Shown piece after piece: positions 1,853 to 48,836 of a stretch of DNA of 64,000 nucleotides. The stretch lies in the NCBI RefSeq assembly GCF_009914755.1, contig NC_060928.1; one strand, 5' to 3'. The notes below the pieces were generated by a model. That model searched no databases. It saw nothing but the letters and a program-made list of their open reading frames with translations, and had not been told where the DNA came from. The first letter of the stretch is position 1; each line of letters begins with the position of its first letter. Source of the stretch: the human T2T-CHM13v2.0 reference genome, Homo sapiens. A program made the translations under genes and the position numbers.

Positions 1853-2069
<217 letters not shown>

Positions 2070-3646: not shown

Positions 3647-4132
3647 AACAGATTTCTTGCAATGTGATTTCTAGACTGAGGTTGCTATGCTTTCTCCCTA
3701 CATTCAGGCCCCACAAGCCCTGCTTTCCAGTAGCCAGGCTGATAATGCAGAGTGAAGTGGATGTGATGGGCTGTGTTGAACTGTTGAGCACAAGCTGGTC
3801 TGAACAGCTATTCGCTGCTCCATCAAGTTGCTGATTCACCAGAACAAAGACATAAGTGTTCCCAGATCGAATTTATAGGGGAATCCAGGCTTTCATGTGA
3901 AATAGCTCATTTTTAAATGATGACAGCTAAACACTTAAAAATCATTTTTAAAAATCTGTGCAAGCCAAATTGACAGTGTCTATAGGTCTGTGGGCCACCT
4001 GTTAGCGACTTCCCTACATGTAGTAAAATGTTTCAGTACCATCCACTCAAGGCTCTGTTTCCTGCAGAAAGCCGGTAAGCATTAATACCTCTCCCTTTCA
4101 TTCCTGACATTCTCTTCTTTCCTTTTTTCCAG

Positions 4133-4399
4133 GATATGTGCTGTCTCTGGTCTGTCCAAACTCCTCCCAGGCTTGGTGTGAGATCACAAATGTGTCACAG
4201 CTGCTGGCTTCTCCTGTGCTCTACACGGACCTGAATTACAGCATAAACAACTTGAGCATTTCAGCAAATGTAGAAAACAAATACAGTCTTTATGTGGGCT
4301 TGGTACTGGCAGTAAGCTCAAGTATTTTTATTGGCTCCAGCTTCATACTGAAAAAGAAGGGCCTCTTGCAACTGGCCAGCAAGGGCTTTACTAGAGCTG
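4133..4399 (+). CDS. NIPAL1: NIPAL1 coding exon (exon 2), NIPA-like Mg2+ transporter
   Basis: Polypyrimidine tract and AG at 4131-4132; GTAAG donor at 4400; encodes (G)[12 protein letters not shown]...[22 protein letters not shown](G) with the NIPA TM1 motif; phase joins next exon. Confidence 0.97.
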
Positions 4400-4461
4400 G
4401 TAAGAAACACATGCAACTAATGAATTTAAGTTTCTAACTGCAGAAATGATGTGAGGCCACA

Positions 4462-5491
4462 TCTCAGCAATACTCTTATAAACTTGCTTGTGTAATTATA
4501 GTTATTGATTTTTTTTCCATATGGATGTTAGAAAAATACTTAGGTCTTTGATTAAAATGAATAGAAAACTCATGGTTAATGAAGGGATAGTCAGGCAGAC
4601 CTACTCAGCATCTTAAGTGTCACTATAAATAGCAGCCTAATTCCATTGCTATCCATTTATTGATTTAGTAAATATCTATTAGGTGCCAAACACTGCTAGG
4701 GAAGGTTCCTGTTCTTGAGAATCTGCTATAAATGAGCAAGTAAACCTGTCAGCAATAAAAAAGAACACATGTACAACTAAGAATTATCCTAGGCTACAGT
4801 AATAATAACTCACTGGCTCGGTTTATCTTAGTCTCTATCTTCTTGATGGAGTCAGCTGTGTCTCCCAGTCTCTGATCTCTGCCACCTCTCCAACTTCCTC
4901 TTGCTTTTCTCCCCATCACCTACTTTTCTCTTGTTCCTGGAATATGTCTGGTTCTGTCCCACCCCCAGGTCTCTTCCCATTGCGTGGAACCCTTCTTCCT
5001 GCCCTTCATTCAGCTCACTCATCCTTCAGACTTCAGTGTGAGTAGCATCACCTCAGAAAGGCCTTCCTTGACCATCCTCTCACAGCAGGTCTCCCCACCC
5101 CACCCCCGTTATTCTCTGTCATTGCACTAATAGTTTCCCTCACCGTACCTAGGATAATTTTTAGTTGTACATGTATTCTTTATTGTTGCTGACAGGTTTA
5201 CTTGCTTATTGATAGTAGATTCTCAAGAACAGGAACCTTCCCTAGCAGTGTTTGGCACCTAATAGATATTTATTAAATTAATAAATGGACAACAATAGAA
5301 TTAGGCTGCTATTTATAGTGACACTTAAGATGCTAAGTAGGTCTACCTGACTATCCCTTCATTAACCATGAGTTTTCTATTCATTTTCATCAAGTGTACT
5401 ATAAGATCTAAGCTTTTTTCTAACATCCATATGGAAAAAAATCAATGATTATAAATTACACAAGCAAGTTTATAAAAGAGTACTATTGAGA
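4462..5491. repeat. Long inverted repeat (arms 4462-4793 and 5148-5491, 354-bp spacer)
   Basis: Arm 2 is the reverse complement of arm 1, including a perfect 56-bp block (4669-4724 vs 5217-5272). Confidence 0.95.
4860..5290 (+). mobile_element. L2 (LINE-2) 3' fragment
   Basis: L2-like CATCCTTCAGACTTCAG...CACCTCAGAAAGGCCTTCCTTGACC and L2-type tail CCTAGCAGTGTTTGGCACCTAATAGATATTTATTAAATTAATAAATG. Confidence 0.6.
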
Positions 5492-5772
5492 GGAGATTTG
5501 TACTATCAGAAAAGAAAACATATGCTGTATTAAAACAATTTGATACTGGCATTAAAGCGACAAAATCATAACAGATAATTTAAAACTTATAAGTGGACCC
5601 AAGTATATATAACAATTGAATTTGTTATTTTAAAAAGTGACATTTCGAAACTGTGGAGAAAGGACAAATCATTCAAAGTATTGAGATAATTGGAAAAAAT
5701 TAGAGGAGAAAAACATGAAAGTTCTGCTTCACACCATTCAGCAAAATACATTCTAGATAGGTTAGAATTTAA

Positions 5773-6119
<347 letters not shown>

Positions 6120-6367
6120 CTAAGCATAAAGATAAATAATTTATTTTATATAAAGGAAGAGATTACCTAGATTGACAAAAAAAATCCTATATGGAAACAC
6201 TTTAACTGAAACTAAAAAGCAAATGATATATTGGGGGAAATATGATGAAATATGTGACAAAGTATAGTTTCATAATATATAAAAAGTGACTGCAGTCAAT
6301 AAGTAAAAAGGTTAGTACCCTAACAGAAAATAGACATGGCATATAAACAAGAAACAAACAAAATAAG

Positions 6368-31239: not shown

Positions 31240-35094
<3,855 letters not shown>

Positions 35095-38885: not shown

Positions 38886-42624
<3,739 letters not shown>

Positions 42625-48103: not shown

Positions 48104-48836
<733 letters not shown>

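What the first reader, a model, noticed from the sequence alone, without database searches (positions are those of the whole stretch)
4462..5491. 1-kb non-Alu fold-back starting 62 nt after the NIPAL1 exon-2 donor
Seen: 4462-4793 is the reverse complement of 5148-5491 (332 and 344 bp, 354-bp loop), with perfect blocks of 56, 42 and 37 bp and one 10-nt indel. A hand count gives about 23 substitutions; in the pre-mRNA about 10 become G-U wobbles and about 9 become A-C mismatches, so the duplex is nearly continuous. This is not two independent TE copies: the inner ~140 bp is an L2 tail continuous with the spacer, and the outer ~200 bp looks like unique intron sequence. Established: L2 is a very ancient family, so ~90% arm identity requires a later inverted duplication or arm-to-arm gene conversion; long duplexes with A-C mismatches are preferred ADAR substrates; some miRNAs (miR-28, miR-151) derive from inverted L2 ends. 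Inference: a locus-made dsRNA element that could be hyper-edited, give small RNAs or affect exon-2 splicing. About 14 of 19 transitions have G/C in arm 1 and A/T in arm 2, an unexplained asymmetry.
Basis: partly seen in the sequence, partly recalled or inferred. Interest (0 to 1): 0.8.

Follow-up and report, generated by a model that had tools for sequence, protein, structure and literature searches.

The report
Intronic inverted duplication forming long hairpin
A 340-base piece of NIPAL1 intron 2 was copied in reverse next to itself tens of millions of years ago, so the pre-mRNA can fold into a long double-stranded hairpin; this is real, but it is an ordinary kind of repair scar with no sign of a selected function.

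Summary
Arms 4462-4800 and 5142-5491 are reverse complements: 337 aligned columns, 24 substitutions, a 10-nt indel and perfect blocks of 56/42/37. BLAST finds the arm only twice in the genome. The RNA fold has 321 inter-arm base pairs, z = -55.

It is a segmental inverted duplication, not a pair of transposons. Arm 2 is the parent. An L2-like tail runs from the spacer into it and ends near 5288-5292. A LINE-1 ORF2 fragment starts inside it at 5417 and runs past its outer end to 5766. About 125 bp between the two is non-repetitive. Arm 1 is the derived copy. It has no target-site duplication, and no homology continues beyond the arm ends. This layout fits a fold-back or template-switch repair event.

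Arm divergence (K2P 0.076) suggests roughly 20-50 million years. The G/C-versus-A/T asymmetry is not significant (p = 0.06-0.12). Wobble and A-C mismatches are 10:10, so there is no sign of selection for pairing.

ADAR editing is likely but untested. No paper on it was found. It is a new member of a known kind, of low to moderate interest.

The parts
4400..4461 (+). 62-nt linker between the exon-2 donor (GTAAGA at 4400) and arm 1. This is the old flank on the far side of the junction made by the duplication.
   Evidence: Sequence and exon end 4399 from the hub annotation. It has no homology to the sequence beyond arm 2 (shuffle p = 0.81).
4462..4800 (.). Arm 1, the derived inverted copy (339 nt). 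Its sub-parts mirror arm 2: about 4462-4534 is the inverted LINE-1 ORF2 edge, about 4535-4649 is non-repetitive sequence, and about 4650-4800 is the inverted L2-like tail.
   Evidence: Alignment. The L2-like profile hits 4697-4663 on the minus strand, or 4699-4651 with the longer profile. The LINE-1 profile hits 4534-4447 on the minus strand, E = 3.8e-6. There are novel junctions on both sides and no target-site duplication.
4801..5141 (+). Single-copy spacer, which forms the hairpin loop (341 nt; 354 nt if the arms are cut at 4793/5148). GC is 0.50 against 0.31-0.33 in the arms. At least 4960-5141 is the body of the L2-like repeat.
   Evidence: Profile hits 4960-5288 (E = 1.2e-16) and 4968-5292 (E = 5.2e-19). 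The two halves of the spacer are not complementary to each other (p = 0.32).
5142..5491 (+). Arm 2, the parent copy (350 nt). 5142 to about 5290 is the L2-like 3' tail. 5291-5416 is non-repetitive. 5417-5491 is the start of a LINE-1 ORF2 fragment.
   Evidence: Both repeat families run across the arm's ends into the flanking DNA. The 21-mer at 5340-5360 has 40 genomic hits against 66 for the control. The 22-mer at 5244-5265 has 166 against 3. The 21-mer at 5418-5438 has 858 against 100 at <=3 mismatches and 67 against 3 at <=2.
5393..5402 (.). 10-nt indel: bases present in arm 2 and absent from arm 1, next to a short CTT direct repeat.
5492..5766 (+). Continuation of the LINE-1 ORF2 fragment outside arm 2. 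It is included as context because it shows arm 2 lies in its ancestral setting.
   Evidence: A profile of 28 genomic copies aligns to 5417-5766, E = 1.5e-13. A copy of the family (L049) translates to a peptide that matches LINE-1 ORF2p residues 908-1025 of PDB 8uw3, E = 2.7e-7.

Best explanation
This is the fixed scar of one small inverted duplication. A 350-bp stretch of NIPAL1 intron 2 (now 5142-5491) was copied in reverse and joined about 340 bp upstream (now 4462-4800). The stretch held the 3' tail of an old L2-like element, about 125 bp of plain intron and the first 75 bp of an old LINE-1 fragment. The most likely route (inferred) is a DNA break at the left end of the present spacer. The resected 3' end folded back on a short inverted microhomology, copied about 350 nt of its own strand, and was then end-joined to the other side of the break. 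A replicative template switch would give the same product. Arm divergence dates the event to roughly 20-50 million years ago, that is, within the primates (inferred). Because both arms lie in one intron on the sense strand, every NIPAL1 pre-mRNA can fold into a hairpin of about 320 bp and 93% pairing with a 341-nt loop, starting 62 nt after the exon-2 donor. It is probably bound and edited in many places by nuclear ADAR, then removed and degraded with the intron. It most likely has no selected function.
For: Shown. BLAST finds the arm only twice in the genome. The L2-like family has a core 19-mer with 566 genomic hits against 16 for the control. It aligns continuously from the spacer across the inner arm boundary and stops at 5288-5292. 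The LINE-1 family aligns continuously from 5417 across the outer arm boundary to 5766 and is identified through PDB LINE-1 ORF2p. So arm 2 keeps its old neighbours on both sides and arm 1 does not. Divergence is equal in the repeat-derived and other parts of the arm: 11/150 against 13/187. There is no target-site duplication; the best shared flank k-mer is 3 nt. Homology ends sharply at both arm ends. At the spacer boundary the homology continues for 6-7 nt with one gap and one mismatch, next to a CCTAGG palindrome. Hermetz et al. 2014 report the same layout, a single-copy spacer with short inverted sequences at its boundary, as the mark of fold-back inverted duplication (PMC3907307, abstract). 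K2P distance is 0.076 +/- 0.016. G-U-making and A-C-making transitions are 10:10, the neutral expectation. Context: dsRNAscan predicts about 5 million human dsRNAs, 96% of those in protein-coding genes intronic, and edited ones have a median length of 297 bp and 85% pairing (PMC11838218, passages). This duplex is longer and better paired than that typical edited substrate.
Against: No orthologous sequence could be examined, so the date and the 'single event' reading rest on one genome and on recalled substitution rates. The three longest perfect blocks together are longer than expected under evenly spread differences (p = 0.029). That leaves some room for partial gene conversion. Transitions are somewhat over-represented: 20 of 24, p = 0.059 against a 2:1 expectation. 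Neither editing nor duplex formation in cells was observed here; no RNA data were available. 'No function' is an absence-of-evidence statement. The position 62 nt from a donor is unusual enough that a splicing effect cannot be excluded. The name 'L2' comes from recall of the L2 3' end, not from a tool.
Confidence: 0.7

Rival explanations
1. The inverted duplication is much older, close to the age of the L2 and LINE-1 fragments. The arms have been kept about 93% alike by repeated arm-to-arm gene conversion.
For: The three longest perfect blocks (56 + 42 + 37) exceed random expectation, p = 0.029. Close inverted repeats are known substrates for intrachromosomal conversion (general knowledge).
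Against: The longest block alone is not unusual (p = 0.115). Divergence is even between the inner and outer parts. Homology stops sharply at both arm ends, with no more-diverged inverted repeat beyond them; an old larger duplication with a converted core would be expected to leave such a repeat.
Confidence: 0.12
2. The hairpin is a selected cis-regulatory RNA element. It might recruit ADAR as an editing inducer element, change exon-2 donor use or intron-2 kinetics, hide a cryptic exon in its loop, or give small RNAs.
For: It starts 62 nt from the donor. It is a long, nearly continuous duplex. Long intronic stems can raise editing at nearby sites (PMC5654063; title and start of abstract in the listing only). 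Many L2-derived miRNAs come from two opposed L2 elements (PMC6433296, passage). The loop holds a 69-nt candidate exon with a polypyrimidine-AG and a GTGAGT.
Against: Transitions that keep pairing (G-U) and those that break it (A-C) are 10:10, and all 4 transversions break pairs, so there is no signature of selection on the stem. No Rfam family matches at E <= 1. No miRNA or extra exon is annotated here (hub table). Long hairpin RNA gave little RNAi or editing in mouse somatic cells (PMC3245926; title in the listing only). Six literature searches with NIPAL1 among the terms found nothing relevant; one search did not require the gene name.
Confidence: 0.08
3. The arms are two independent insertions of one repeat family, or the terminal inverted repeats of a single long-TIR DNA transposon.
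For: Parts of each arm do belong to dispersed repeat families.
Against: Each arm carries pieces of two unrelated families plus non-repetitive DNA in the same order and with the same divergence. The whole arm has only two copies in the genome. There is no target-site duplication. Both repeat fragments continue out of arm 2 into its flanks.
Confidence: 0.01
4. It is an assembly artefact, a false fold-back join in the reference.
For: None found.
Against: The arms differ at 24 substituted positions and 5 indels. A chimeric read or assembly fold-back would not produce that. The window comes from a telomere-to-telomere assembly (hub note).
Confidence: 0.01

Closest known systems
Fold-back inverted duplications with a single-copy spacer (Hermetz et al. 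2014, PMC3907307; abstract read)
   Same: It has an inverted copy and a direct copy separated by a single-copy spacer, and a short inverted sequence at the spacer/duplication boundary. One copy remains in its original context.
   Different: The scale is about 0.35 kb, not kilobases to megabases. It is interstitial with both flanks kept, with no terminal deletion, translocation or ring. It is fixed in the germ line rather than a patient rearrangement. The yeast cases found in the listing (PMC11724301, abstract start only) are far smaller, about 5-34 bp.
Intronic inverted-repeat Alu pairs and other predicted long dsRNAs, as in the dsRNAscan catalogue (PMC11838218; passages read)
   Same: It is an intramolecular duplex of about 300 bp in an intron, the class that carries most human A-to-I editing. 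Its length and pairing exceed the medians for edited dsRNAs (297 bp, 85%).
   Different: The arms are not two insertions of one repeat but one duplicated composite segment. The loop is short (341 nt against a median of about 2 kb). At 93.2% paired nucleotides it falls below the catalogue's '>300 bp and >96% paired' class of 2,018 putative MDA5 ligands, and it is intronic.
L2-derived miRNA loci such as mir-28 and mir-151, formed by two opposed L2 elements (PMC6433296; passage read)
   Same: Opposed L2-like 3' ends supply part of the stem.
   Different: No Rfam miRNA model matches the arms at E <= 1. The stem is about 320 bp, not a pre-miRNA-sized hairpin of about 70 nt. The two L2-like tails are one element plus its copy, not two elements. 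No miRNA is annotated here.
Editing inducer elements: long intronic stems that recruit ADAR to nearby sites (PMC5654063; listing only)
   Same: It is a long intronic stem close to an exon.
   Different: No edited site in NIPAL1 exon 2 is known to me or was found in the searches. There is no evidence of conservation.

Membership tests
Fold-back / template-switch inverted duplication | Inverted and direct copies separated by a single-copy spacer | tested here: met
   The arms are 4462-4800 and 5142-5491. The spacer halves are not complementary (p = 0.32).
Fold-back / template-switch inverted duplication | Short inverted sequence (microhomology) at the spacer/duplication boundary | tested here: inconclusive
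   4795-4800 pairs with 5142-5147 at 5 of 6 positions after a 1-nt gap, beside a CCTAGG palindrome. After about 7% divergence, pre-existing microhomology cannot be told apart from the end of the copied tract.
Fold-back / template-switch inverted duplication | One copy in ancestral context, the other bounded by novel junctions | tested here: met
   The L2-like and LINE-1 profiles both run through the ends of arm 2 into its flanks. The flanks of arm 1 are unrelated.
Fold-back / template-switch inverted duplication | Arose as one event after the repeats had decayed; arm 1 absent in outgroup species | not testable with these tools
   No primate or mammalian orthologues are available. Equal divergence of the arm's parts is the only indirect support.
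Pair of independent inverted transposon copies (IR-Alu-like, or opposed L2 elements) | Each arm is a separate insertion of one family, with arm similarity set by the family's age | tested here: not met
   Each arm holds two families plus non-repeat DNA in the same order. Arm identity is 93%, although pairwise BLAST between the window and 29 other L2-like copies finds only 27-80 nt around the core, in 12 of the 29.
Long-TIR DNA transposon / MITE | Target-site duplication and multiple genomic copies | tested here: not met
   The best shared flank k-mer is 3 nt. The genome holds only the two arms.
Rfam miRNA precursor families (including the L2-derived mir-28 and mir-151) | Match to a covariance model | tested here: not met
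   All 7 matches at E <= 1 in 3900-6100 lie in 5800-6100, in the Alu. None lies in 4462-5491.
ADAR-edited intronic dsRNA (editing-enriched region) | Long, largely paired intramolecular duplex within a transcribed unit | tested here: met
   There are 321 inter-arm pairs and a longest helix of 78 bp, z = -55. Both arms lie in NIPAL1 intron 2 on the sense strand (hub annotation).
ADAR-edited intronic dsRNA (editing-enriched region) | Clusters of A-to-G mismatches in RNA reads on both arms | not testable with these tools
   No RNA-seq data or editing database is available. The supplement of PMC11838218 was unreadable.
Putative MDA5-activating long dsRNA (dsRNAscan definition) | >300 bp, >96% of nucleotides paired, present in mature cytoplasmic RNA | tested here: not met
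   The length criterion is met (321 bp). Only 93.2% of nucleotides are paired, and the duplex is wholly intronic.

The most novel reading that the evidence does not exclude
The fold-back may be a primate-specific regulatory hairpin. By forming within seconds of transcription, 62 nt past the exon-2 donor, it could recruit ADAR and loop out a 341-nt segment. That segment contains a ready-made 69-nt poison exon (AG at 4966-4968, GTGAGT at 5038-5043, in-frame stop). NIPAL1 output would then depend on duplex integrity and editing level. Loss of pairing, or heavy editing, would unmask the exon or change exon-2 splicing.
Probability: 0.05. Interest if true: 0.55.

Novelty: new member of a known kind. 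Interest (0 to 1): 0.25.

Why it matters
If the reading is right, the locus is a clean, datable natural example of a sub-kilobase fold-back inverted duplication fixed in the human lineage. Two unrelated old repeats act as built-in markers that show which arm is the parent. It also gives a non-Alu, single-locus hairpin of about 320 bp that can be mapped uniquely. That makes it a convenient test substrate for nuclear ADAR editing, J2 or PARIS duplex mapping, and the fate of intronic dsRNA. It does not change what is known about NIPAL1, about dsRNA biology or about repair mechanisms.

Tried and rejected
1. Whole-genome BLAST with the spacer plus arm 2 and sensitive blastn within the window were too insensitive to name the old repeats. 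They returned only the two arms and one 35-nt match.

2. Pairwise blastn of the locus against 29 other copies of the L2-like core matched only 27-80 nt, in 12 of 29 loci. Profiles were needed.

3. The longer L2-like profile and the LINE-1 profile picked up Alu sequence from the flanks of the training loci. Their hits at 5761-6200 are Alu contamination and were ignored.

4. I tried to polarise the 10 inner-arm differences with the two L2-like profiles as outgroup. It failed: the profiles disagree at 8 of the 9 sites where both give a call, and posterior values are low. Which arm changed therefore remains unknown.

5. In the LINE-1 profile alignment, the 15 nt beyond arm 1's outer end (4447-4461) seemed to continue the consensus in phase. 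Alone, neither that 62-nt flank nor the first 62 nt beyond arm 2 gives any nhmmer hit. The planned shuffle test then stopped with a script error. I treat this as chance.

6. Pfam found nothing in two translated pieces of a LINE-1-like copy. The PDB sequence search did.

7. The window file carries no soft-masking, so NCBI's repeat mask could not be read for this stretch.

8. A fold of 4100-5700 showed only short, unremarkable helices involving exon 2 and the donor. I draw nothing from it.

9. Literature. NIPAL1 with 'RNA editing' gave 2 papers, with 'ADAR' 7, with 'inverted' 15 (10 listed) and with 'dsRNA' 1. A six-term search found no top-20 paper containing NIPAL1. None is relevant by title and abstract start. 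Supplements are not covered by these searches.

11. The idea that arm 1 was made from an edited RNA copy was rejected. The excess is seen for both G/A (8 against 4) and C/T (6 against 2) columns, so it is not strand-specific.

Full report
**Observation.**
The repeat finder gives a gap-free core, 4548-4793 against 5148-5393, 94% complementary and 354 nt apart. Collinear outer pieces reach 4473/5478.
- A gapped local alignment runs 4462-4800 against 5491-5142. It has 337 aligned columns, 24 substitutions (20 transitions, 4 transversions) and 15 gap columns, including one 10-nt indel. The perfect blocks are 56, 42 and 37.
In RNA these give 10 G-U wobbles and 9 A-C mismatches, or 10 with the 4798/5144 site.
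- Arm 1 begins 62 nt after the exon-2 donor (hub annotation).
- Folded as RNA, 4462-5491 has an MFE of -543.7 kcal/mol against -216.0 +/- 6.0 for 25 dinucleotide shuffles (z = -54.8). There are 321 inter-arm pairs (214 A-U, 97 G-C, 10 G-U) and a longest uninterrupted helix of 78 bp. The 4400-5550 fold shows the same stem.
- 93.2% of arm nucleotides are paired.
- Of 19 inverted pairs of at least 120 nt within 5 kb in the window, this is the most similar.

**What the arms are made of.**
- BLAST of arm 1 against the whole assembly returns only the two arms. The spacer plus arm 2 adds one 35-nt match elsewhere.
- Old repeats are invisible to that search, so I used short probes and profiles.
- A 19-mer from the spacer (5059-5077) has 566 genomic matches at <=2 mismatches against 16 for the reversed control.
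- A profile of 29 such copies aligns to 4960-5288 (E = 1.2e-16). A longer one aligns to 4968-5292 (E = 5.2e-19). The family therefore runs without a break from the spacer across the inner arm boundary at 5148 and ends in an A/T-rich tail near 5290.
- A 22-mer from that tail (5244-5265) has 166 matches against 3. From recall, this is the 3' end of LINE-2; no tool named it.
- A 21-mer from the middle of the outer part (5340-5360) is at background: 40 against 66.
- A 21-mer at 5418-5438 is enriched: 858 against 100 at <=3 mismatches and 67 against 3 at <=2.
- A profile of 28 of those copies aligns to 5417-5766 on the plus strand (E = 1.5e-13) and to arm 1 in reverse, 4534-4447 (E = 3.8e-6).
- One copy (L049) translates to a peptide that matches LINE-1 ORF2 protein residues 908-1025 (PDB 8uw3, E = 2.7e-7). 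Pfam found nothing.
- Arm 2 therefore consists of an L2-like tail (5142 to about 5290), non-repetitive DNA (5291-5416) and the first 75 bp of a LINE-1 ORF2 fragment that continues 275 bp beyond the arm.

**Origin.**
- Both repeat fragments pass through the ends of arm 2 into its neighbours, so arm 2 is in its ancestral setting and arm 1 is the derived inverted copy.
- The whole composite unit was copied at once. Divergence is 13/187 in the outer part and 11/150 in the L2-like part.
- There is no target-site duplication.
- No weaker inverted homology continues beyond either arm end. The outer flanks give p = 0.81 and the spacer halves p = 0.32.
- At the inner boundary the homology continues 6-7 nt past a CCTAGG palindrome, with one gap and one mismatch.
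- Hermetz et al. take this layout, an inverted copy, a single-copy spacer, a direct copy and a short inverted sequence at the spacer edge, as the signature of fold-back inverted duplication after a double-strand break (PMC3907307, abstract).
- The case here is about 0.35 kb, interstitial and fixed. A replicative template switch would leave the same product. I cannot separate the two mechanisms.

**Age.**
- The K2P distance between the arms is 0.076 +/- 0.016.
- With recalled long-term primate rates of about 1.0-1.2e-9 per site per year, this gives 32-38 million years, with a sampling range of about 19-53.
- The duplication would then be of roughly catarrhine age, long after the L2 and LINE-1 fragments had decayed.
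- This could not be checked. No primate or mammalian orthologue is reachable with the tools.

- None of the sites is a CpG; the arms hold 0 and 1 CpG.
- The excess is present in both purine (8:4) and pyrimidine (6:2) columns. It therefore fits neither transcription-strand asymmetry nor an edited-RNA origin.
- Polarising the inner-arm differences with the repeat profiles as outgroup failed.
- I regard the asymmetry as unproven and probably chance.
- Transitions are mildly in excess (20/24, p = 0.059 against 2:1). The three longest perfect blocks together are longer than random (p = 0.029), though the longest alone is not (p = 0.115). This leaves a little room for partial gene conversion.

**How it most likely works.**
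- Both arms lie in one intron on the sense strand, and the second arm is transcribed less than 1.1 kb after the first. The hairpin should form on every pre-mRNA. This is inferred; only the fold is shown.
- Its length and pairing exceed the medians of edited human dsRNAs (297 bp, 85%). 96% of predicted dsRNAs in protein-coding genes are likewise intronic (PMC11838218, passages).
- Nuclear ADAR editing at many sites is therefore the expected fate. The ten A-C mismatch adenosines are the likely best sites.
- It misses the same catalogue's '>300 bp and >96% paired' class of 2,018 candidate MDA5 ligands. Being intronic, it should not normally reach the cytoplasm.
- Nothing points to a selected role. 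Pair-preserving and pair-breaking transitions are 10:10. No Rfam family matches the arms at E <= 1; all 7 matches are in the Alu at 5800-6100. Nothing is annotated there.
- Searches pairing NIPAL1 with 'RNA editing', 'ADAR', 'inverted' and 'dsRNA', plus a six-term search, gave nothing relevant by title and abstract start. Supplementary tables of editing catalogues were not searchable, and the one I tried was unreadable. A listing of editing sites here may still exist in print.

**Comparison and verdict.**
- The locus works like an inverted-Alu dsRNA but is not a transposon pair.
- It is built like a fold-back inverted duplication, but in miniature and without chromosome-end loss.
- It shares opposed L2-like ends with L2-derived miRNA loci (PMC6433296, passage) but is not a pre-miRNA.
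- It is a new member of known kinds: a neat, datable and uniquely mappable example, not a new mechanism.
- Interest is 0.25.
- The boldest reading not excluded is a primate-specific hairpin that tunes exon-2 splicing or masks the 69-nt in-frame-stop candidate exon in its loop. I put it at about 5%.

Noticed in passing
window 4969-5037: The hairpin loop holds a candidate 69-nt cryptic exon. A polypyrimidine run ends in AG at 4966-4968, and a GTGAGT donor lies at 5038-5043. Read in the exon-2 frame it ends in a stop codon, so inclusion would act as a poison exon. It is not annotated, and no splice-site scoring tool was available.
   Followed up: partly
window 1903-2068 and 5789-5954: Alu-like elements in introns 1 and 2 lie in inverted orientation around exon 2: 166 nt, 78% complementary (pair I14). 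Rfam SRP/Alu-type matches lie at 5800-6081. This arrangement is known to favour back-splicing of the enclosed exon.
   Followed up: no
window 48171-48376 and 48404-48609: An inverted pair of 206 nt, 73% complementary, with only 27 nt between the arms, lies in a TXK intron (pair I6). It overlaps a stretch the hub lists as repeat-masked, so it is probably two adjacent repeat copies.
   Followed up: no
window 33993-34738 and 39337-40082: The longest inverted pair in the window is 746 nt, 90% complementary and 4.6 kb apart. It lies in the intergenic, repeat-masked block between NIPAL1 and TXK (pair I1, with I16 alongside).
   Followed up: no
window 4447-4461: In the LINE-1 profile alignment, the 15 nt just outside arm 1 seem to continue the LINE-1 consensus in phase. 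On its own this flank gives no hit, and it has no similarity to the sequence beyond arm 2. It is probably chance. If real, it would hint that the outer junction formed between two diverged, opposed LINE-1 pieces.
   Followed up: partly
window 5393-5402: The 10-nt indel between the arms sits beside a CTT direct repeat. That would fit a slippage deletion in arm 1, or a skip during copying.
   Followed up: partly
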